A stretch of 64,000 nt of DNA from a phage. The notes under the pieces are model-generated. The model did not search any database and was not told the DNA's origin. It was given only the letters and a program-made list of their open reading frames with translations. The stretch lies in NCBI GenBank assembly GCA_020241125.1, contig GCA_020241125.1_4708.1; one strand, 5' to 3'. This document shows positions 31,841 to 53,939 of this stretch, piece by piece (within the stretch, counting starts at the first letter, position 1; the number at the start of each line of letters is the position of its first letter). The translations under genes and the position numbers were made by a program.

Positions 31841-32410
31841 TCAACGATTCTTCATCACTTTACCCAGGCTTTCGATATTATCCCAAAAGCGATTTTTACT
31901 TGGCGCATCGCCGACGATAACCGACATCAAATCACGACGTTCGCGACTGATGATGCCTTGTGATTTCCAGATCACCATCGTCCAGCAAGCGGCCAGAACG
32001 AACAGATGGTTAATGCTCGGTTTGGTTTGCGCGATGAACGCAAGCCATGCCCAGATACCGGTGTATACTAGCGTCACTAAAAAGAGCGAGATTGTTGCAA
32101 CGACAACAACGAAGTTTTGGACAGCGGGTTGATTAGCGTTATCATGAATAGCGGTAAGATCAGGAAGATTACCTTCAACTGAACTCGTTTCATCGATTTC
32201 CAATTCTTCGATTTCTTTTCGTGTGTCAGGAGCTAATCCAGCATCATCGAGATGCTTTTTTAACCGCTGTATGCTTAATCGTTGACCGACAGGAATGTTG
32301 ATGTTGTCGTAACTATTAAGCGCATCAACCAGGGAGCGTCCATCAACGAGAACCAAGCTCGCGGTACCCATCGTTTGCGGTTTTATTTTGTAAAGGTCTT
32401 TTACTTTCAT
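31841..32410 (-). CDS. Hypothetical protein with internal hydrophobic segments
   Basis: 189-aa ORF; hydrophobic stretch VVVATISLFLVTLVYTGIWAWLAFI. Confidence 0.5.
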   Translation of the reverse strand: MKVKDLYKIKPQTMGTASLVLVDGRSLVDALNSYDNINIPVGQRLSIQRLKKHLDDAGLAPDTRKEIEELEIDETSSVEGNLPDLTAIHDNANQPAVQNFVVVVATISLFLVTLVYTGIWAWLAFIAQTKPSINHLFVLAACWTMVIWKSQGIISRERRDLMSVIVGDAPSKNRFWDNIESLGKVMKNR

Positions 32411-36578: not shown

Positions 36579-37085
36579 TTACTCGCTGATAACCTCAACG
36601 GAATTGGGATCAGCGATCATCGCACGGTCAGTAGAACAATTGAAGAAGACCATGCCGACACCATCGCCGTTCGAGTTCAGGGTTGAACTTACGTAAGACA
36701 GGGTTGGTTTATTCATGCGGTAGAAGCGTTCGCTGGTTGCGGTATTGAACCCCAGGTCAACGTAGTCTTTCACCGTGGTGTACAACTGTGTGGACTCGAA
36801 AACGGTTACCGGAGAGTCGACGGTAAATTGACTACCTTCGTCTACAACCAGAACTTTATCGTTCCAGATTTCAGTGGTTGAGAACTTCGGTTTCCAATGT
36901 TCGAATTCCTGGGTTGCACCCCAGCAAGAATACACAGCGAGATTGCTGTTCTTCTCAACAGGTTTCAACCCCACCAGTTGTGTCAGGTCTTTATCCAGGT
37001 TCGGTAAGCCTTCCAGCGTAGCACACCCACCCAGAGAAAGTACCATCAACATACCAAGAACGATCGCACAAAGTTTCTTCATCAT
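36579..37085 (-). CDS. Putative lipoprotein
   Basis: 168 aa; N-terminus MMKKLCAIVLGMLMVLSLGGC is a classic signal peptide with lipobox (LGGC). Confidence 0.6.
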   Translation of the reverse strand: MMKKLCAIVLGMLMVLSLGGCATLEGLPNLDKDLTQLVGLKPVEKNSNLAVYSCWGATQEFEHWKPKFSTTEIWNDKVLVVDEGSQFTVDSPVTVFESTQLYTTVKDYVDLGFNTATSERFYRMNKPTLSYVSSTLNSNGDGVGMVFFNCSTDRAMIADPNSVEVISE

Positions 37086-47665: not shown

Positions 47666-47733
47666 TGGGAGCCTCAAAAAAAAAAAACGAAAAAATAGGA
47701 AAACGGTGTTCATCCTTTTTAGGGATGAACACC
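47666..47733 (-). terminator. Intrinsic (rho-independent) terminator
   Basis: Perfect 11-bp stem GGTGTTCATCC/GGATGAACACC (47705..47733) followed on the minus-strand transcript by a long U-tract (plus-strand A-run 47666..47700); lies just downstream of gene 47755..48330. Confidence 0.8.
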
Positions 47734-47754
47734 GCGTACCGTTATATCGAACGA

Positions 47755-48330
47755 TTAATGAGGAATCAGATCGTTAAGCTTTTCTTCTTCAATGACAAAG
47801 AAGTTGTTCTGGTCGTCTAAATCTGTTAACAGGACTTGTCCGACAGTAAAGCACGTACCGCCCTTCTTAGGCACCCATACCGGCTCATTCGTTACCTTAT
47901 CGGGATACCATTTGAAACGATTGGTATCCAAGAAGAACGCTGCTTTGTTTGCTTTATCGGTTGAACGATAGCTAACCAATGCAGGCCACTCAATCCAGGT
48001 GTTTGTGCATGGTACATGTAAAGGATACCATGCGCGCCAGCGTTTGCCCGGACTGTTAGGATCAACCCAATACTCGGCAGTCAATACAGCATCTTTATAA
48101 TGTTTCTGCATTAACATTTCGAGCACAAGCTCATTGCCTTTTGATGCGTCTAAAGTCACTTCCGTCATATAAAGAGATTTAGGTAATTCAGACTGTTTTG
48201 CGGGTGTTACAACACCGGTAACCAACGGTCTGCTCGGTTTACGTTTCTGTTCTTTCCGACGTGTGTAAAAGAATAGTCCGATAGATACAGCAACAAGTAT
48301 AATAAACAACACTACCTTAATCCAATTCAT
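47755..48330 (-). CDS. Hypothetical membrane-anchored protein
   Basis: 191 aa; N-terminal hydrophobic segment MNWIKVVLFIILVAVSIGLFFY followed by a basic stretch. Confidence 0.5.
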   Translation of the reverse strand: MNWIKVVLFIILVAVSIGLFFYTRRKEQKRKPSRPLVTGVVTPAKQSELPKSLYMTEVTLDASKGNELVLEMLMQKHYKDAVLTAEYWVDPNSPGKRWRAWYPLHVPCTNTWIEWPALVSYRSTDKANKAAFFLDTNRFKWYPDKVTNEPVWVPKKGGTCFTVGQVLLTDLDDQNNFFVIEEEKLNDLIPH

Positions 48331-49076
48331 TCGTCAATATCTCCTTCCACAAACAGAGTCAATTTGATTTCAGGATCATAGAACATGGTAATCACATCAT
48401 CTTGCTCTACTGAACGCTGTGCTGTCCATATTAACTGTTCATCCCGAATATCAAATTTATGTCGTTCGTCACTCACCACAGCTTCCGCATCAACGTAATG
48501 GTAAACATCACCGAGAGGATTCTCAATCCAGCCGCGTACCATCAAACGTTCTTTTTGTTTACGTGTAAAGAAGCGATAGGGATCTTCGCACGTGCGCCAT
48601 ACGTCCCCCTTCTCGCTAACCAGTTCATCATAAACTTTAGAGAGTTCGTCAGGCACCGGAATCAAAATGTTATCTTGATAGTTCGACCAGAAACGACGTA
48701 CGTCTTGGATCAACTCATCGTCTGGGAGTTTAGTCGCTATGTTACTATAATCGATTTCAACAGTATCGATATCAAGACGGGTAAACGGAAGAGCGTCTAG
48801 GTTTCCCACCATGACCTCGATCTGATCATGATGGACACGAATCCATCCATCGAACCATCTGTACCCATCAGCTTGATATAACGTTGTGTGATAAGTGACG
48901 ACGTTAATATCCTCGAACGATTCTAATAAGGCTTTAGCGGCTAAAAGCGGTGAAAAGTTCTTCGATTGTCCTGGTTTACGTATTTCTTCTTTGATAAACA
49001 ATTTACCGAGCAGTGGGTGTTCGATAACAAAACCACAGGAAAGCATGATGCTTCCTTGATAACGTGCTTCTTGCAT
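48327..49076 (-). CDS. Hypothetical protein
   Basis: 249-aa ORF; 4-nt overlap with downstream gene. Confidence 0.5.
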   Translation of the reverse strand: MQEARYQGSIMLSCGFVIEHPLLGKLFIKEEIRKPGQSKNFSPLLAAKALLESFEDINVVTYHTTLYQADGYRWFDGWIRVHHDQIEVMVGNLDALPFTRLDIDTVEIDYSNIATKLPDDELIQDVRRFWSNYQDNILIPVPDELSKVYDELVSEKGDVWRTCEDPYRFFTRKQKERLMVRGWIENPLGDVYHYVDAEAVVSDERHKFDIRDEQLIWTAQRSVEQDDVITMFYDPEIKLTLFVEGDIDE

Positions 49077-49194
49077 TTTTTATTCCTTAAACAAAAGATT
49101 GTCTTTTACGCGACATGATTACAAGTACACAGGTTACTGAATTTCTGTAAAAGTTAATTTTCGTAAACTAAAAGAAAATGTATCCGTGTTTCCT

Positions 49195-49231
49195 GGTTCT
49201 TCCCCTCCACAGCCTCAGGAAGAGAAGAACC
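49195..49231 (-). terminator. Hairpin downstream of gene 49252..49500
   Basis: GGTTCTTC...GAAGAACC outer stem with alternative inner pairings (TTCTTCC/GGAAGAG). Confidence 0.4.
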
Positions 49232-49251
49232 GTTTGCTAAGTTGTTATGTA

Positions 49252-49500
49252 TTAAAATGCATTGATTGGACTGTTCAACGCTTTATCACGGATTTGAATC
49301 GCCGCCAGCATTGCTTTCTGGTACGAATCGTAGGCATCGACAGAAACAGTCGTATCAACCAATTCCTTTAATGCGGATTCAGCCGCTTTTACACGGACGC
49401 GGAACTTGGTGATTGCGTTATCTTTGTTACGATAAACCGTGATGTGGTGCAGCGGTTGAACTTTGGTTTTAACGGATTTAGTTGCTTTGATCGTTTTCAT
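49252..49500 (-). CDS. Hypothetical small basic protein
   Basis: 82-aa ORF bounded by hairpins on both sides. Confidence 0.45.
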   Translation of the reverse strand: MKTIKATKSVKTKVQPLHHITVYRNKDNAITKFRVRVKAAESALKELVDTTVSVDAYDSYQKAMLAAIQIRDKALNSPINAF

Positions 49501-49552
49501 GATGATTTCCTTCTTTATTAGGATGATTACATTTAGTCAGTTTAACAGCATA

Positions 49553-49580
49553 AGCCCTTCCCACCTTACGCAGGAAGGGC
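49553..49580 (-). terminator. Conserved palindromic hairpin (member 11)
   Basis: CATAA-GCCCTTCC-caccttacgca-GGAAGGGC-ATAC. Confidence 0.55.
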
Positions 49581-49593
49581 ATACGGATTTGTT

Positions 49594-50091
49594 TTACGTG
49601 TGTCGTCGTTTACCAAAGAAAATGTGGCTATCTACCACGGTGATATTGGTAGCATGTTTTCTGAAATGTTTAGGGCGAAGATGTTTCGCGTTAAAGAATA
49701 CGGCTCCTCGTGTTGGGTCGGCTTTATGGTAAGCCGCAATGTCAGTATAACGTAATGTTGCGACCTCTCGTGCTATTGCTCTTGCTCGCTCAAAAGCAGC
49801 ATGATCGCGTATGACAATACGCCTTTGTTTTGTCCAGGGGAATTGACCTCTTTGCAGTACGACGTCTCTGACGTTCGTAGGGAATCGGTAGTCCATAGAT
49901 CGATTATGTATTAAAAACGCCACGGAGTATTGCCCTTTTACAGATTCGCCTCTGGCTTCCATATACACAGCGCATGCGACGATCTCTTTCCGGCAATCGA
50001 TTCTAGGTCCTGCGTTCACCGATGCTTGACTGAACGGTGTGATAAGCAACATAACAAGCCCTAAAATCAACGTGTGTAAAATACCTTGCAT
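49594..50091 (-). CDS. Secreted SleB-like cell-wall hydrolase (candidate endolysin)
   Basis: N-terminal signal peptide (MQGILHTLILGLVMLLITPFSQASVNA); CAVYMEARGES matches the hallmark YxEARGE motif of SleB/CwlJ-type hydrolases. Confidence 0.6.
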   Translation of the reverse strand: MQGILHTLILGLVMLLITPFSQASVNAGPRIDCRKEIVACAVYMEARGESVKGQYSVAFLIHNRSMDYRFPTNVRDVVLQRGQFPWTKQRRIVIRDHAAFERARAIAREVATLRYTDIAAYHKADPTRGAVFFNAKHLRPKHFRKHATNITVVDSHIFFGKRRHT

Positions 50092-50344
50092 CTTAATAAC
50101 CTCACGATAAGGTGCTGTCCACTGGCGTCTTGATAACGCATCCCGTCTATCGGGTTGTTCTATTCAGCGGGCAGCAGGTTAGCGTCAGATGTTTGCCCGA
50201 CATCCACGACAGAAATAAACGGTACTGAAAATACGGTCTCCTCTGGTTTGGCAATAAACATAACGTTGGATAACAGAACCCATTTCCCGCATCCAACGCG
50301 GTAAAGGTGTACATCGTTTGAAGTCATATAGTTTCTCAAAGATG

Positions 50345-50749
50345 TTAACCTCTACCGTCGAGCCATAGGTTGTATTTATCCCGAACATACGGCTCACGAT
50401 AAATACGTCGATAGACTTGATGCGGTATAAACTTGCAATGTACGAGTTCGTCGCTTAATTTATGCCGTCGCTCCATACCGTTGTGAATACGACGTATCTC
50501 CCGGATATTAAAGGTTGTTTTATTCAAGAGAATAGACATAATGGCGGATCGATGATCCAGATTAAAGATCGCCATCACGCTTCGTATCTCGCGTAAAACA
50601 ACTTCTCTATCGACAAGGATGCGATTAGTTAACTTAAGATTCTCCGTGATACCCATAACCTTCATCCTCGACACGTCGACACATCGGTAAAAATAAACAC
50701 CAGCTTGTTGCACTGAGGACCGCCGTTGCGACGATATTTGCGATATCAC
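50345..50749 (-). CDS. Hypothetical protein (uncertain)
   Basis: 134-aa ORF overlapping neighbouring ORFs in other frames; start uncertain. Confidence 0.3.
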   Translation of the reverse strand: MISQISSQRRSSVQQAGVYFYRCVDVSRMKVMGITENLKLTNRILVDREVVLREIRSVMAIFNLDHRSAIMSILLNKTTFNIREIRRIHNGMERRHKLSDELVHCKFIPHQVYRRIYREPYVRDKYNLWLDGRG

Positions 50750-51005
50750 TCAATCGAGCATCGGCTTGCCACATAACAAGCATGAAAAGAACGTACGCGA
50801 ACCCATACACGACAAACCGTTTTATGTTACGCGTCGACCATGTACAAATATACAAAAGGGGAAGCTGCCCTATAACACAAACGATGGTTCGGATAACGTA
50901 ATAAACGCGTTCCGTCGTTGTTTCAAAATCGATATTCGTTGCAGAAATCCCAATCATTATAAAAGTGAAAATGAAATAGATTTTTGCGTATGTCTTTAAA
51001 CTCAT
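50634..51005 (-). CDS. Small multi-pass membrane protein (holin-like candidate)
   Basis: 123 aa with several hydrophobic segments (IYFIFTFIMIGISA, VIRTIVCVIGQLPLLYI, VVYGFAYVLFMLVMW). Confidence 0.45.
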   Translation of the reverse strand: MSLKTYAKIYFIFTFIMIGISATNIDFETTTERVYYVIRTIVCVIGQLPLLYICTWSTRNIKRFVVYGFAYVLFMLVMWQADARLSDIANIVATAVLSATSWCLFLPMCRRVEDEGYGYHGES

Positions 51006-51021
51006 GGCTTTTCCCGATCGT

Positions 51022-51255
51022 TTATTTGTGTTTTCCTACATTCCTCAACAAGGTAACGATAACGAATACCGCTATCATCAAGAAGACGAACCATAACCCT
51101 ACGTTAATTCGGGCAGCAGGTTCATCGACCATGAAGAACATCATCCCACAAAACCCAATGACCATCCATGCTAGAACCATCCCCGTTAATCCCCGTAGTA
51201 GCATATGTCCCATCATGAACTCCTTCTTACTTTTTCTGATAAAGCGATGATTCAA
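51022..51255 (-). CDS. Small two-TM membrane protein
   Basis: 77 aa; hydrophobic segments LTGMVLAWMVIGFCGMMFFMV and LWFVFLMIAVFVIVTLL. Confidence 0.45.
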   Translation of the reverse strand: MNHRFIRKSKKEFMMGHMLLRGLTGMVLAWMVIGFCGMMFFMVDEPAARINVGLWFVFLMIAVFVIVTLLRNVGKHK

Positions 51256-51389
51256 ATTTTAGAAACATCACTAACGCGAATGCGAGTAATAACGCACGTA
51301 CCCACATACCTCCTTGACAACTGTTGTACAACATAAAGACCAGAGCGATGCCGCCCATATGCAGGCGGCACTTATCGAACAGTGTTGGT

Positions 51390-51617
51390 TTATACATAAG
51401 AGATCAATCGTTGAATGATTTTTACTTTGCCTTTGCCTGGACCTTTCTTGCGGCGATTCAACAGACGGATACTGTTTCCAGTTACGGTGTCGCCATCATA
51501 ATCAGCCCGGAACTGTGATAAAAAAGCAGGTTGTATCTGATCGACACCAGGATTGCTGTGGAAAGGATTGAGACTTAAAAGAGGGTTAGCTGGAATCATC
51601 GTATTGTCCTTACTCAA
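51390..51617 (-). CDS. Hypothetical small protein
   Basis: 75-aa ORF. Confidence 0.35.
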   Translation of the reverse strand: MSKDNTMIPANPLLSLNPFHSNPGVDQIQPAFLSQFRADYDGDTVTGNSIRLLNRRKKGPGKGKVKIIQRLISYV

Positions 51618-51968
51618 TTATTTACCCAGATAGAGATATTCAGCGCCCTGAACAACGCCGGTTGTTGGATCAACCAGTACGCGAACCCGTGCGTAGGTCT
51701 TGAAAGAGGGATTGAAAACTTCGAAGTCGGCCACTTTCAATTTCACGCTGGGATTGATAGGGTTCTTAACTCCTGGAAGTTCTTTCGGTAATCCGAAGTC
51801 GACTCCATATTCTTCAAGGTCTGCTGGCGTCATGCTCTCCATGGCCATGTAGACCGCTTTTGCTTTATCGTAAACTTCCGGGCTATCCAACAATCCAGCC
51901 TGCGCTGAACCGACAACACTACCGAACAGAATAGCAACAGCAACAAACAATTTAGTTAACGTTTTCAT
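51618..51968 (-). CDS. Small secreted protein
   Basis: 116 aa; signal peptide MKTLTKLFVAVAILFGSVVGSAQA. Confidence 0.5.
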   Translation of the reverse strand: MKTLTKLFVAVAILFGSVVGSAQAGLLDSPEVYDKAKAVYMAMESMTPADLEEYGVDFGLPKELPGVKNPINPSVKLKVADFEVFNPSFKTYARVRVLVDPTTGVVQGAEYLYLGK

Positions 51969-52006
51969 GATCGTTTCCTTAATAACTTAAATAAACCAAT
52001 TTAGTA

Positions 52007-52429
52007 TTAACGTACGGCCGCTACACTGTTAGCGCATGCCTGAATATCATCGGTATTTACGATGATGGTTTCGTTAAACGCACGAATACGCGCACGACGT
52101 GCTTCTTTAAGGCTGGCGATTGCGTTAGCAGCTTGATCTGTATTCGCAAGGCTAATAACTGGGATCAAGCGCATGTCCGGACTGCAGATATTCAATGCCT
52201 GGTATACACGTCCATTGATTCCTACGGTATCAGACATCGGATAGTGCGCACGGCATTGAAATTGACCCATGACAACAAGCGAACGATCTGAGATACCAAT
52301 CTGATAACGACCATCTTCACTGTAGGCGTAGCAGTTATTCCCACGAGCCATCCAGTTAGCCTGTGCTTGCGTGCTAACAAAAGCCAGGGTGGTGACGATA
52401 GCGAATACGATATTTTTGAACAGTTTCAT
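52007..52429 (-). CDS. Small secreted protein
   Basis: Start set at internal Met (MKLFKNIVFAIVTTLAFVSTQAQA signal peptide) because the ORF-track start at 52498 runs through a terminator hairpin. Confidence 0.5.
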   Translation of the reverse strand: MKLFKNIVFAIVTTLAFVSTQAQANWMARGNNCYAYSEDGRYQIGISDRSLVVMGQFQCRAHYPMSDTVGINGRVYQALNICSPDMRLIPVISLANTDQAANAIASLKEARRARIRAFNETIIVNTDDIQACANSVAAVR

Positions 52430-52465
52430 GATAAAGATCCTTATTGAAATAAAATCGGTATAAAG

Positions 52466-52482
52466 GCCCCCATTTAGGGGGA
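52466..52482 (-). terminator. Short GC hairpin, putative terminator
   Basis: CCCCC-ATTTA-GGGGG hairpin immediately downstream of gene 52488..52805, followed by U-rich sequence on the minus transcript. Confidence 0.45.
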
Positions 52483-52487
52483 CCTGA

Positions 52488-52805
52488 TTAGTTTGCACGT
52501 AAGAAATGACCTAGAACCGTTACAATTGGAAACAGTCCTGTAACCGTATTATCACCCGAAAACATCATCTTTGAGTCGTTAACGGTGATGAAACGGATGT
52601 CGGTTGCGGATCCGTCGATAGCGACAAAACGCATTGAGTTCGGTGGAAGATCCTCAACAACTTCCACGAGGTGTTCACGATTTTCAAAGGCTTCTTTAAC
52701 ACGACGCATGAAACGAATCAATGTTCCTTCAGCGTCGGCTTCCAAATGACCTAAGATATCGCGATTATTGCGAATAGCGAATACAGACATTTTAAACATA
52801 CACAT
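52488..52805 (-). CDS. Hypothetical small protein
   Basis: 105-aa ORF; preceded by conserved promoter/leader element (copy B). Confidence 0.5.
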   Translation of the reverse strand: MCMFKMSVFAIRNNRDILGHLEADAEGTLIRFMRRVKEAFENREHLVEVVEDLPPNSMRFVAIDGSATDIRFITVNDSKMMFSGDNTVTGLFPIVTVLGHFLRAN

Positions 52806-52895
52806 CTTGACATCCTCTTATATTGGATTGATTGCTAATAATTCAAGGTGAAGCTGATTACTGCATTGCTTCACCTAGGTAATATAGCCGTGAAA
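52806..52895 (-). promoter_or_regulatory. Conserved promoter/5' leader element, copy B
   Basis: Proximal CAATCCAATATAAGAGGATGTCAAG-ATG and distal TTTCACGGCTATATTACCTAGGTG about 67 nt upstream; near-identical to copy A. Confidence 0.5.
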
Positions 52896-52910
52896 ATTAA
52901 TGCATTAATT
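52895..52910. promoter_or_regulatory. Perfect 16-bp palindrome AATTAATGCATTAATT (candidate operator)
   Basis: Exact self-complementary 16-mer between the stop of gene 52914..53939 and promoter element copy B. Confidence 0.4.
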
Positions 52911-52913
52911 TAT

Positions 52914-53939
52914 TCACGACTTCGCCATGTAGGGTTGAATCGCATGGAAGCGTTTAACCACAACTTCAGGAAAAAGTTTGATGATTTCATCAGGCGGTGC
53001 TGCACCTTCTGTCCAACGATAGCGTTCAACCTTCTCGATGCGTGGACTCCCTCCGACGTCAGCGATACGAAAGATACAGGCGATGCCTAAATCAAAACAC
53101 ACGCTGTAAATATCTTCCGTGCCTCCTTTATCAGCAAGTATTTTCGCAAAATGCTCGTTATCAGGAAGAATGGCTAAATTACGTATACGCCAAACATTAT
53201 TACCCATTTCTTCAAGGATTGGGTATGTTAAAGTGTGTCCGTGTCGTGTTAACCATCGATGATTTTCGAGGTAGAAGTCCTTATCCCCTGGCCGGTAACC
53301 CATAATCACTCCCGTGTAGAAGAGATTGGGCATATCGAGCAGTTCTTGAATCGTTGGGCCGGTATACTCCCAGAGACAGATTTGTTTGCGGTCTATATCG
53401 TAATCTGTAACGTTACTCACCTCCCAACTTATCGTAAGTTCGTCGATAACATGCCAACCTAAAGTGTGTTCGCAACAAAATAGATTAACAATGGCTGATA
53501 TCTCATACTTGTCAAATACCCCCAAATTACACGGTGGTTGCATCGTACGTAACGGCTCCCATAACGCACTGTAATCATAGAGCAAGTGCCGACACAAACT
53601 TTTTGTTAGTGGTGTCTGTTCAGTAAACAGTGGAAGAATCACCTTATCCAATAACAGACGTAACGGATGGTCGTCTGGTGGTAGAGGAGCAACTAGACGA
53701 CCTCCTTCTTTAGGGTAATCAGGGCCAAACCCGTAACGCTCCGAAATGAGTGCAATCAACACTTTTGCTACGCGATTACGTAGCATGCGATGGATATCAT
53801 CACTGTAACTGAATTTCGGTTTATTTCCGCAAACGAAGGTGAAGTATCTAGGTGATAGCTTAACCATAATCTTTTCCTTAATCCAAATAGTACGTGATGG
53901 ATAGGTCTTTTCCATTGAATACAATATCCGTACAGTCAT
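52914..53939 (-). CDS. Hypothetical protein
   Basis: 341-aa ORF; no recognisable motif. Confidence 0.5.
   Translation of the reverse strand: MTVRILYSMEKTYPSRTIWIKEKIMVKLSPRYFTFVCGNKPKFSYSDDIHRMLRNRVAKVLIALISERYGFGPDYPKEGGRLVAPLPPDDHPLRLLLDKVILPLFTEQTPLTKSLCRHLLYDYSALWEPLRTMQPPCNLGVFDKYEISAIVNLFCCEHTLGWHVIDELTISWEVSNVTDYDIDRKQICLWEYTGPTIQELLDMPNLFYTGVIMGYRPGDKDFYLENHRWLTRHGHTLTYPILEEMGNNVWRIRNLAILPDNEHFAKILADKGGTEDIYSVCFDLGIACIFRIADVGGSPRIEKVERYRWTEGAAPPDEIIKLFPEVVVKRFHAIQPYMAKS

What the first reader, a model, noticed from the sequence alone, without database searches (positions are those of the whole stretch)
49594..52498. Lysis-like cluster: secreted SleB-type hydrolase with small membrane and periplasmic proteins
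A Sec-signal-bearing SleB/CwlJ-like hydrolase (CAVYMEARGES) is followed on the same strand by two small multi-TM proteins and two small signal-peptide proteins. This could be a non-canonical lysis cassette with a secreted endolysin, holin or antiholin candidates and spanin-like components. The secreted endolysin type in particular would be interesting.
Basis: partly seen in the sequence, partly recalled or inferred. Interest (0 to 1): 0.4.

Follow-up and report, generated by a model that had tools for sequence, protein, structure and literature searches.

The report
Early envelope operon with secreted hydrolase
This stretch of a Goslar-like jumbo phage of E. coli carries a cell-wall-cutting enzyme with an export signal, plus small membrane and periplasmic proteins. 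In the sequenced relative Goslar these genes are switched on early, so this is more likely an accessory envelope-remodelling operon than the phage's final lysis cassette.

Summary
The genes are real, but they lie on the minus strand, so the hydrolase is transcribed after the small proteins, not before them. The window is 94.8% identical to Escherichia phage Goslar, and the region corresponds to Goslar gp097-gp105.

**The hydrolase (49594-50091).** It is a genuine Hydrolase_2/SleB-family enzyme with a cleavable-type signal peptide. RefSeq already annotates it as 'endolysin'. More than 1000 phage records hold a match to it, and the four homologues aligned all carry a signal peptide.

**Against a classic lysis cassette:**
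- In Goslar RNA-seq the whole block gp094-gp159 belongs to the nucleus-independent (early) class.
- A cytoplasmic GH108+PG_binding_3 enzyme (gp024, outside the window) is in the late class.
- The two signal-peptide proteins are not spanins. They have no lipobox and fold as globular IalB-like and cystatin/PepSY-like domains.
- These two proteins form a conserved gene pair. It is also found adjacent in CP4-type islands of three enterobacterial genera and fused in E. coli.

**Still compatible with a lysis role:**
- gp101 has a class-II-holin-like topology.
- Vequintavirinae-type phages pair the same kind of hydrolase with a small two-TMD protein.

**Verdict.** This is an early envelope-directed operon with an accessory periplasmic muramidase or transglycosylase. 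It is a new member of a known kind. One side finding is unexplained: a nearly invariant 184-nt block just upstream of the hydrolase gene.

The parts
52806..52913 (-). AT-rich intergenic region upstream of gp105, a possible early promoter. It contains TATATTAC at 52879-52886.
   Evidence: Sequence read. The motif occurs once in the window, which is not above chance. That TATATTAC is the phiKZ early-promoter consensus is my recollection and was not confirmed in the papers read. The RNA-seq ratio steps from about 0.1 (gp106-110) to about 1.0-1.3 (gp105-gp096) at this point. Inference only.
52488..52805 (-). gp105 homologue, 105 aa, soluble. Probably the first gene of the unit. Replaced by a 30%-identical protein in lineage L021.
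52007..52429 (-). gp104 homologue, 140 aa. Signal peptide (TQAQA|N), four conserved Cys, IalB-like beta fold. First half of a conserved two-gene periplasmic module.
51618..51968 (-). gp103 homologue, 116 aa. Signal peptide (GSAQA|G), cystatin/PepSY-like alpha+beta4 fold. Second half of the module.
51390..51599 (-). gp102 homologue, 69 aa, soluble, basic C-terminus, conserved RADYDGDTVTG motif.
   Evidence: dN/dS 0.22. No family hit.
51227..51397 (-). D: 56-aa membrane protein gene, not annotated in Goslar. One strong and one weak hydrophobic segment.
   Evidence: Intact in all relatives. Called as a gene in L021-L023. dN/dS 0.15.
51022..51213 (-). gp101 homologue, 63 aa, two TMDs, basic C-terminus. 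Class-II-holin-like topology, but no match to any known holin family.
   Evidence: dN/dS 0.09. No Pfam, PHROG or PADLOC hit.
50634..51005 (-). gp100 homologue, 123 aa, four hydrophobic segments. Fast-evolving inner-membrane protein.
   Evidence: 45% amino-acid identity to L021, dN/dS 0.34. Found only in Goslar among the phage records.
50345..50656 (-). gp099 homologue, 103 aa, basic, soluble.
   Evidence: dN/dS 0.21
50161..50344 (-). Hyperconserved 184-nt block. It contains the 55-aa ORF X' (50160-50327). Function unknown.
   Evidence: Only 4 variable columns among 7 Goslar-like sequences, all nonsynonymous in the X' frame and none synonymous. 177/180 identical to L021, where flanking genes are 60-83% identical. 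No Rfam hit. Fold z=-1.1.
49594..50091 (-). gp098 homologue: secreted SleB-type (Hydrolase_2) peptidoglycan hydrolase, 165 aa. Signal peptide residues 1-23, catalytic Glu45, net basic.
   Evidence: GAGG ribosome-binding site. dN/dS 0.09.
49252..49500 (-). gp097 homologue, 82 aa, basic, soluble. Same RNA-seq class as the cluster.
47755..48330 (-). gp094 homologue, 191 aa, with an N-terminal membrane anchor and a periplasmic globular domain. Last gene of the early block.
   Evidence: Early class.
47703..47735 (-). Strong intrinsic terminator (13-bp stem, 7 G-C pairs, T-rich tail) marking the early/late boundary between gp094 and gp093.
   Evidence: RNA-seq ratio jumps from +0.6 (gp094) to -5.4 to -6.6 (gp093).

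Best explanation
The region is most of an early operon, roughly gp105 to gp096/097, inside the large minus-strand block gp094-gp159 of a Goslar-like nucleus-forming jumbo phage. In Goslar this block is transcribed independently of the phage nucleus, which the source paper attributes to the virion RNA polymerase. About half of the operon's products go to the cell envelope.

The enzyme gene encodes a small, basic SleB-family hydrolase, most likely a lytic transglycosylase. I infer that it is exported by Sec, cleaved after SQA23, and acts on the murein from the periplasmic side during infection. On this reading it is an accessory enzyme that remodels or primes the wall, not the terminal, holin-released endolysin. 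A late, cytoplasmic GH108+PG_binding_3 enzyme (Goslar gp024, outside the window) is the better candidate for that terminal role.

gp104 and gp103 are two halves of one periplasmic module. The phage shares this module with enterobacterial CP4-type islands, and it is not a spanin. gp101, D and gp100 are small inner-membrane proteins of unknown role.

Shown here: domain identity, signal-type N-termini, purifying selection, the early transcript class in Goslar, the gene-pair conservation and the predicted folds. Inferred: export and cleavage, the reaction chemistry, the timing in this particular phage, and the biological role.
For: - Identity of the phage: 94.8% nucleotide identity to Goslar, with the same gene order.
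- Hydrolase_2 domain, conserved catalytic Glu and match to SleB structures.
- Signal peptide: the hydrophobic core is 67% L/I/V/M/F and 22% G/A/S/T, with Pro at -5 and S-Q-A at -3 to -1. This is SPase I type, not SAR type.
- Timing: gp094-gp159 are ChmA-independent at 30 mpi, while gp022-036 and gp076-093 drop 8- to 100-fold. The paper reports that 164 of the 171 genes expressed under ChmA knock-down are also on at 5 mpi.
- A strong terminator lies exactly at the gp094/gp093 class boundary.
- gp024 is GH108+PG_binding_3, has no signal peptide or TMD, and is late.
- Family-wide pattern: 1035 phage records hold a match to the hydrolase. The four homologues aligned, from Arash, UPEC06, CB7 and DevonBitter, all have signal peptides. 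All four sit among early or replication genes and small ORFs. At least the CB7 and T5-like AKFV33 groups have a separate endolysin gene (PMC7344957; PMC3326045).
- gp104/gp103 are an adjacent pair in Enterobacter, Citrobacter and Klebsiella islands and are fused in E. coli.
- Enrichment of envelope-targeted proteins in the cluster: p=1.2e-4 by hand tally, p=0.07 by automatic threshold.
Against: - The expression data come from Goslar, not this phage. They are one time point with a knock-down, so 'early' means nucleus-independent, and these genes stay on throughout infection.
- An early map position does not exclude a lysis role. T5-like phages keep lysozyme and holin genes in the early region. 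Exported endolysins can be made long before lysis (Lys44 and SAR endolysins, from my own knowledge).
- gp024 is abundant in Goslar virion preparations (10 peptides). It could be an entry lysin like phiKZ gp144, which would leave gp098 as the only non-virion muralytic enzyme.
- No holin was found next to gp024.
- The CB7 homologue is reported as toxic when expressed in E. coli (data not shown in that paper), and a holin-like gene overlaps it.
- No concrete benefit of early wall remodelling has been demonstrated.
Confidence: 0.5

Rival explanations
1. It is the phage's real lysis system in a non-canonical form. The Sec-exported SleB-type endolysin accumulates in the periplasm and is unleashed when a pinholin-like protein (gp101, perhaps with D and gp100 as partner or antiholin) depolarises the inner membrane.
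For: - gp101 is 63 aa with two TMDs and a basic C-terminus.
- The same hydrolase family is overlapped by a 65-70-aa two-TMD protein in CB7 and UPEC06. The CB7 authors propose it as a class II holin.
- CB7_83 is reported toxic in E. coli.
- gp098 is absent from the virion mass-spectrometry table, whereas gp024 is present.
- No holin lies next to gp024.
- Reviews of nucleus-forming phages describe no lysis mechanism.
Against: - The whole cluster is in the nucleus-independent early class, whereas gp024 is late.
- gp101 is three genes away from the hydrolase and matches no holin family.
- gp103 and gp104 are not spanins.
- T5-like and rV5-like phages with the same hydrolase have other endolysin, holin and spanin genes.
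- The neighbours of the hydrolase are not conserved between phage families.
Confidence: 0.2
2. It is an early envelope-defence (superinfection-exclusion) operon. Periplasmic gp104+gp103 and the small membrane proteins would block entry of competing phages, for example by inhibiting incoming tail lysins in the way T4 Sp and Imm do. The hydrolase would be a separate passenger.
For: - Early expression.
- The gp104/gp103 module is shared with CP4-type islands that also carry TIR, AbiGi, SymE and CbtA genes.
- gp103 has a cystatin/PepSY-type fold, a fold often used by hydrolase inhibitors (YpeB, colicin M immunity, cystatins).
- The closest non-phage gp103 homologue lies beside PatB-like and Ape1-like peptidoglycan O-acetylation genes.
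- gp100 evolves fast.
Against: - No sequence match to any known exclusion or defence protein (PADLOC, Pfam and PHROGs all negative).
- This reading does not explain why the hydrolase is there.
Confidence: 0.15
3. There is no functional unit. The region is a mosaic of unrelated accessory genes that happen to include several envelope proteins.
For: - gp104, gp103 and gp100 are restricted to Goslar-like phages among 50,697 phage records.
- gp105 is replaced in L021.
- gp096 is present in Goslar but absent here.
- The hydrolase has different neighbours in other phage families.
Against: - The enrichment of envelope-targeted products is p=1.2e-4 by hand tally, although only p=0.07 by automatic threshold.
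- The RNA-seq ratio is uniform across gp096-gp105.
- Gene order from gp104 to gp098 is kept in all seven Goslar-like sequences, including the lineage whose gp100 and gp099 genes are only about 60-64% identical at nucleotide level.
Confidence: 0.15

Closest known systems
SleB-like hydrolase CB7_83 and its overlapping two-TMD protein CB7_82 of Pectobacterium phage CB7, with homologues across Vequintavirinae (PMC7344957)
   Same: Same Hydrolase_2 family (30% identity over the full-length alignment). Both have an N-terminal signal peptide, sit among small early-region ORFs, and have a small two-TMD membrane protein nearby. The phage also encodes other muralytic enzymes.
   Different: In CB7 the membrane-protein gene overlaps the 3' end of the hydrolase gene. 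Here the two-TMD gene is upstream and three genes away. The proteins share no detectable sequence similarity apart from the hydrolase. Neither system has been tested experimentally beyond a 'toxic on expression' remark.
Bacillus spore cortex-lytic enzyme SleB and its PepSY-domain partner YpeB
   Different: - There is no N-terminal PG_binding_1 domain.
- The protein scores 41.5 bits against TIGR02869, whose cutoff is 236.5, so it is not a SleB equivalog.
- The substrate cannot be muramic-delta-lactam cortex.
- The gp103-YpeB resemblance is at fold level only, and the fold is common.
- gp103 homologues in bacterial islands have no Hydrolase_2 neighbour.
Exported endolysins: Sec-secreted Lys44 of Oenococcus phage fOg44, and the SAR endolysins P1 Lyz and phage 21 R21 with pinholin S21 (from my own knowledge)
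   Same: A muralytic enzyme reaches the periplasm or wall without a large-hole holin. A small two-TMD membrane protein is available as a possible depolarising trigger.
   Different: - The catalytic fold differs (Hydrolase_2 rather than T4-lysozyme-like or GH25).
- The N-terminus is Leu/Ile-rich with an AXA-type cleavage site, not a Gly/Ala-rich releasable anchor.
- The genes are in an early transcript class, not a late lysis cassette.
- No spanins lie adjacent.
T4 early envelope proteins Imm and Sp (superinfection exclusion) (from my own knowledge)
   Same: Small membrane and periplasmic proteins made early by a large virulent coliphage. One of them (Sp) acts on a peptidoglycan hydrolase.
   Different: No sequence or fold similarity was shown, and no exclusion phenotype is known for Goslar.
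phiKZ gp144 and gp181 (modular endolysin also found in virions; tail lysin) (from my own knowledge)
   Same: Goslar has the equivalents: gp024 (binding domain plus catalytic domain, detected in virion preparations) and gp204 (2252-aa tail protein with a lysozyme-like domain). The cluster's hydrolase is therefore a third, extra muralytic enzyme.
   Different: gp098 has no binding domain, carries a signal peptide, is early, and was not detected in virion preparations.

Membership tests
Hydrolase_2 / SleB-CwlJ catalytic domain (PF07486) | Profile match above the curated threshold over the whole domain | tested here: met
   E=3.7e-16, 60 bits against a cutoff of 27, profile positions 1-100 of 100. 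PHROG 938 'endolysin' E=5e-16.
Hydrolase_2 / SleB-CwlJ catalytic domain (PF07486) | Catalytic glutamate in the xxE(A/S)RGE motif | tested here: met
   E45 in YMEARGE aligns with YGESRGE of SleB 4F55/4FET. It is invariant across the six aligned sequences, two of which are this phage and Goslar.
Hydrolase_2 / SleB-CwlJ catalytic domain (PF07486) | Muralytic (lytic transglycosylase) activity | not testable with these tools
   Needs a zymogram or muropeptide analysis of the purified mature protein.
Spore SleB proper (TIGR02869 equivalog) | Full-length architecture with an N-terminal PG-binding domain, scoring above the equivalog cutoff | tested here: not met
   41.5 bits against a cutoff of 236.5. 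Only the catalytic half aligns.
SAR (signal-anchor-release) endolysin | Weakly hydrophobic, Gly/Ala/Ser-rich N-terminal TMD without a signal-peptidase site | tested here: not met
   The hydrophobic core GILHTLILGLVMLLITPF is 67% L/I/V/M/F and 22% G/A/S/T. It is followed by P(-5)...S-Q-A|S. This is a rule-based reading; SignalP was not available.
Canonical late lysis cassette (holin-endolysin-spanins) | Late transcription together with virion genes | tested here: not met
   Goslar gp096-gp105 have log2FC +0.9 to +1.5 under ChmA knock-down, while late genes have -3 to -7. This was measured in the 94.8%-identical relative, not in this phage.
Canonical late lysis cassette (holin-endolysin-spanins) | A holin: a small membrane protein with one to four TMDs and a charged C-terminus next to the endolysin gene | tested here: inconclusive
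   gp101 (63 aa, two TMDs, C-terminus RNVGKHK) and D fit by size and topology. They match no holin family, are not adjacent to the hydrolase, and have no conserved dual-start motif.
Two-component spanin (i-spanin and o-spanin) or unimolecular spanin | o-spanin or u-spanin: lipoprotein signal with a lipobox Cys | tested here: not met
   No lipobox in gp103, gp104 or any cluster ORF. Both have AQA| SPase I sites.
Two-component spanin (i-spanin and o-spanin) or unimolecular spanin | i-spanin: N-terminal TMD with an extended coiled-coil periplasmic domain. u-spanin: C-terminal TMD. | tested here: not met
PepSY domain (YpeB-type regulator of SleB) | Sequence-profile membership (PF03413) or a specific structural match | tested here: inconclusive

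The most novel reading that the evidence does not exclude
The early-secreted SleB-type hydrolase is held in check in the periplasm by the conserved gp104+gp103 module, acting as a PepSY/cystatin-like plus IalB-like inhibitor pair in the way YpeB acts on SleB. Its synthesis is additionally governed by the nearly invariant 184-nt element directly upstream. Together these would form a regulated periplasmic 'wall-softening' system. The same inhibitor module in enterobacterial islands would protect cells from exogenous lytic enzymes.
Probability: 0.1. Interest if true: 0.6.

Novelty: new member of a known kind. Interest (0 to 1): 0.3.

Why it matters
How nucleus-forming jumbo phages lyse their hosts is essentially undescribed. 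Two recent reviews say nothing about the mechanism. This analysis narrows the question for Goslar-like phages to three muralytic enzymes with distinct timing and location: an early periplasmic Hydrolase_2, a late cytoplasmic GH108, and a tail lysin.

The first of these belongs to a signal-peptide-bearing family that matches more than 1000 records of large virulent enterobacterial phages. I found no experimental characterisation of any phage member. Knowing whether it softens the wall early, backs up lysis, or is the real endolysin would matter for phage biology and for enzybiotic mining.

Two further results are small, testable leads: the gp104/gp103 fusion evidence, and the hyperconserved block upstream of the hydrolase gene.

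Tried and rejected
- **Family scans of the small proteins.** Pfam, PHROGs, NCBIfam and PADLOC gave no hits for any of them.
- **tblastn of gp104, gp103 and gp100 against 50,697 phage records.** Only Goslar matched.
- **Rfam scan of 49000-53000.** Nothing.
- **RNA folding of the hyperconserved block.** Not better than shuffles: z=-1.1 sense and +0.2 antisense. The longer 266-nt leader gave z=-2.6. No covariation test was possible because the sequences are almost identical.
- **blastn of the block against phages.** Only Goslar matched.
- **Sigma-70 promoter scan.** Fewer sites than in shuffled sequence, so uninformative for this phage.
- **phiKZ-type TATATTAC motif.** One occurrence, not above chance. 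That this is the phiKZ consensus is my recollection.
- **Foldseek of the gp103 model against viral structures.** No significant match. The afdb50 library was unavailable.
- **gp027 and gp028 beside gp024 as holin or spanin candidates.** Rejected, because neither has a TMD.
- **SAR endolysin reading.** Rejected on the composition of the hydrophobic core and the cleavage motif.
- **'IVAC' at residues 37-40 of the hydrolase as a lipobox.** Rejected, because it lies after the signal peptide.
- **First tally of hydrophobic ORFs.** Weak (p=0.07), because it counted internal hydrophobic stretches of large structural proteins and missed gp101 and gp104. The hand tally gives p=1.2e-4 but was made after seeing the cluster.
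- **My own correction.** I first concluded that gp024 was absent from the virion mass spectrometry. Searching by accession showed it is present.

Full report
**What the window is**

The 4-kb region is 94.8% identical over 99% of its length to Escherichia phage vB_EcoM_Goslar, a 237-kb nucleus-forming Chimalliviridae phage. The Goslar records annotate the matching stretch as gp095-gp106, all on the minus strand. gp098 is called 'putative cell wall hydrolase' in GenBank and 'endolysin' in RefSeq. The central object of the finding is therefore already annotated in a public genome.

**Checking the observation**

ORF 49594-50091 (minus strand, 165 aa) matches Pfam Hydrolase_2 end to end (E=3.7e-16, 60 bits against a cutoff of 27). 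It also matches PHROG 938 'endolysin' and aligns with the SleB catalytic domain structures 4F55 and 4FET, including the catalytic Glu motif. It is not a SleB equivalog: it scores 41.5 bits against TIGR02869, whose cutoff is 236.5, and it lacks the N-terminal binding domain.

Its N-terminus, MQGILHTLILGLVMLLITPFSQA|SV, has a Leu/Ile-rich core, a Pro at -5 and S-Q-A at -3 to -1. By the -3/-1 rule this is a cleavable Sec signal, not a Gly/Ala-rich SAR anchor. SignalP could not be run.

gp100 (50634-51005) has four hydrophobic segments. gp101 (51022-51213) has two TMDs. gp103 (51618-51968) has the signal GSAQA|G, and gp104 (52007-52429) has TQAQA|N.

Three corrections are needed:
- All genes are on the minus strand, so the hydrolase is transcribed after the small proteins.
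- gp104 starts at the ATG at 52429, not at 52498.
- The cluster also contains gp102, gp099, gp097, an unannotated 56-aa membrane protein D (51227-51397) and a 55-aa ORF X' (50160-50327).

Metagenomic Goslar-like contigs (L011, L013, L021-L023) keep the order gp104 to gp098. Against the most divergent lineage (pS 0.42-0.66), nine of these ORFs (all except X') have dN/dS of 0.09-0.34, so they are real genes.

By my own hand classification, 7 of 13 genes between 47755 and 52805 have signal peptides, anchors or TMDs, against 3 of 58 elsewhere (p=1.2e-4). That tally was made after seeing the cluster. An automatic hydrophobicity threshold gave only p=0.07.

**Timing**

A Goslar RNA-seq table (Supplementary Table 2 of bioRxiv 10.1101/2023.09.20.558163) compares a ChmA (nuclear shell) knock-down with a control at 30 mpi. 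Genes fall into two sharply separated classes.
- gp094-gp159, including every gene of the cluster, change by log2 -1.0 to +1.5. gp096-gp105 lie at +0.9 to +1.5.
- Virion genes, including gp076-gp093 immediately downstream, fall by log2 -2.5 to -8.

The authors show that the knock-down transcriptome equals the 5-20 mpi programme, which they attribute to the virion RNA polymerase in the early infection vesicle. 164 of the 171 genes expressed under knock-down are also on at 5 mpi.

In the window, a strong intrinsic terminator (13-bp stem) at 47735-47703 sits exactly at the gp094/gp093 class boundary. The ratio steps at gp106/gp105 and at gp096/gp095. This suggests that gp105-gp096 is one transcription unit, starting in the AT-rich spacer 52806-52913. 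That is inference only.

The cluster therefore belongs to the early, nucleus-independent programme in the close relative. This was not measured in this phage.

**Other muralytic genes**

The Goslar annotation lists two more.
- gp204 is a 2252-aa tail protein with a lysozyme-like domain.
- gp024 is a 211-aa protein with Glyco_hydro_108 plus PG_binding_3 and no hydrophobic segment. It matches PHROG 315 'endolysin'.

gp024 is in the late class, with log2FC -4.7 to -5.4. This is the architecture and timing expected of a holin-dependent endolysin.

There are two caveats. gp024 is detected in CsCl-purified Goslar virion preparations (10 peptides, 41% coverage). Its abundance there is similar to that of the non-virion protein ChmC, and the authors note that non-virion assemblies co-purify. 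gp098 is not in that table. In addition, no holin lies next to gp024.

**The hydrolase family in other phages**

tblastn finds matches in 1035 phage records. These include T5-like Demerecviridae, Vequintavirinae and related large coliphages, and Salmonella phage Arash, among others.

The four homologues I aligned all have N-terminal signal peptides and the invariant Glu. All four lie among small hypothetical ORFs next to helicase, exonuclease, RNase H, phosphoesterase or tRNA genes, not in lysis cassettes.

The literature agrees:
- In T5-like AKFV33 the SleB gene is in the early region, separate from the lysozyme-holin pair (PMC3326045).
- In CB7 the SleB-like CB7_83 is one of three muralytic candidates. 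It has a signal peptide and is reported toxic when expressed in E. coli (data not shown in that paper).
- The CB7_83 gene is overlapped by a 65-aa two-TMD protein that the authors call a strong class II holin candidate (PMC7344957).

I confirmed the overlapping two-TMD gene in CB7 and UPEC06. I found no experimental characterisation of any phage member.

**The 'spanin-like' proteins**

gp104 and gp103 have SPase I sites and no lipobox.

Neither resembles an i-spanin, o-spanin or u-spanin.

Both families have homologues in Enterobacteriaceae. A 336-aa E. coli protein (P0011, WP_001348677) carries a gp104-like N-terminal half (E=2e-9, all four Cys aligned) and a gp103-like C-terminus (E=3e-15). 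It is present in 9 of 5426 complete E. coli genomes.

In Enterobacter, Citrobacter and Klebsiella the two are adjacent genes in the same order. They always lie between a WYL regulator and a DUF932 gene of CP4-type integrative islands.

gp104 and gp103 are therefore one conserved periplasmic module that exists without any Hydrolase_2 neighbour.

The closest non-phage gp103 homologue (54% identity) lies next to PatB-like (DUF459) and Ape1-like peptidoglycan O-acetylesterase genes. This is a single contextual hint of a link to control of wall-cleaving enzymes.

Both Goslar proteins were detected by mass spectrometry, so they are made.

**Most likely mechanism**

I commit to the following at about 0.5. 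The cluster is an early operon of envelope-directed proteins. Its hydrolase is exported by Sec, cleaved, and acts on the sacculus from the periplasm during infection as an accessory enzyme. Terminal lysis involves the late gp024.

The main rival, at about 0.2, is a secreted-endolysin plus pinholin-like system built from gp098 and gp101. An exclusion or defence operon and a functionally unlinked mosaic share the remaining probability.

Several points argue against my preferred reading:
- Early placement of lysis genes is known in T5-like phages.
- Exported endolysins can be made early.
- gp024 is found in virion preparations.
- The CB7 homologue is reported toxic.

If an early-secreted hydrolase really is lytic on its own, something must restrain it. 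The gp103/gp104 module is a candidate for that role, with probability about 0.1.

**Unexplained side finding**

The 184 nt at 50344-50161, directly upstream of the hydrolase gene and coextensive with ORF X', show only 4 variable columns among seven Goslar-like sequences. All four changes are nonsynonymous in the X' frame, and none is synonymous.

Window and L021 are 177/180 identical in this block. The gene upstream (gp099) is about 60% identical, and the hydrolase gene downstream shows normal synonymous divergence.

This points to constraint at the nucleotide level, or to repeated gene conversion. Rfam gives no hit, folding is not better than shuffles, and the sequences are too similar to test covariation.

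5'UTR-derived small RNAs are known in phage 201phi2-1 (PMC11512511). That is a lead, not evidence.

**Novelty and score**

The hydrolase and its signal peptide are already annotated or described for relatives, and the lysis-cassette idea has been proposed for Certrevirus. What is new here:
- Placing the cluster in the early class.
- Rejecting the spanin reading.
- The fusion evidence linking gp104 and gp103.
- Two unannotated small genes (D and X').
- The hyperconserved block.

Interest is 0.3, and the finding is a new member of a known kind.

Noticed in passing
window 50161-50344 (- strand): A 184-nt block coextensive with the 55-aa ORF X' (50160-50327) is almost invariant in seven Goslar-like sequences. 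There are 4 variable columns, none of them synonymous, while flanking genes diverge by 17-40%. No Rfam hit and no significant predicted structure.
   Followed up: partly
window 51227-51397 (- strand): A 56-aa membrane protein gene (D) is not annotated in either Goslar record. It is intact in all relatives, is called as a gene in metagenomic contigs, and has dN/dS 0.15.
   Followed up: yes
window about 49164: Goslar gp096 (501 bp, weakly similar to an Erwinia phage Stratton protein) is absent here, as a 473-bp indel. It is present in L011, L013, L022 and L023 and absent in L021.
   Followed up: partly
window 51390-51599 (- strand): The 69-aa gp102 homologue carries a conserved RADYDGDTVTG motif, reminiscent of the NADFDGD metal-binding loop of RNA polymerase beta'. 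In L013 the gene is longer (96 aa).
   Followed up: no
window 31841-32410 and 36579-37085 (- strand): Two late-class envelope proteins. The gp085 homologue (189 aa) has two or three C-terminal TMDs. The gp088 homologue (168 aa) has a lipoprotein signal, ...LSLGG|C. Both could be true holin- or spanin-type lysis factors or exclusion proteins. PHROG 9559 (unknown function) matches the lipoprotein.
   Followed up: partly
window 47703-47735 (- strand): A strong intrinsic terminator (13-bp stem, 7 G-C pairs) lies exactly at the boundary between the early-class gp094 and late-class gp093 homologues.
   Followed up: yes
window 49554-49580 (- strand): A perfect 8-bp GC-rich hairpin (GCCCTTCC / GGAAGGGC, 11-nt loop) sits just after the hydrolase stop codon and has no T-run. 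It could be an RNA-stabilising or processing element.
   Followed up: no
L015 6001-7011; L020 5001-6052; L027 3287-4339; L029 4001-4903: Enterobacterial CP4-type islands carry the gp104-like and gp103-like genes between a WYL regulator and DUF932. They are fused in E. coli and adjacent in Enterobacter, Citrobacter and Klebsiella. In the E. coli and Enterobacter loci (L015, L020) TIR, AbiGi or SymE genes lie nearby.
   Followed up: yes
L026 416-3142: In one E. coli assembly the closest non-phage gp103 homologue (54% identity) follows a PatB-like DUF459 gene and an Ape1-like peptidoglycan O-acetylesterase gene inside an integrase-bearing island.
   Followed up: partly
window 47755-48330 (- strand): The gp094 homologue (191 aa) has an N-terminal membrane anchor and a globular periplasmic domain. 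It is a further envelope protein of the early block, with no family match above threshold.
   Followed up: no
Goslar NC_048170 17700-18335 (outside the window): gp024 (GH108+PG_binding_3) is transcribed late and is also detected in purified virion preparations (10 peptides). Its role, endolysin or virion lysin, is unresolved.
   Followed up: partly
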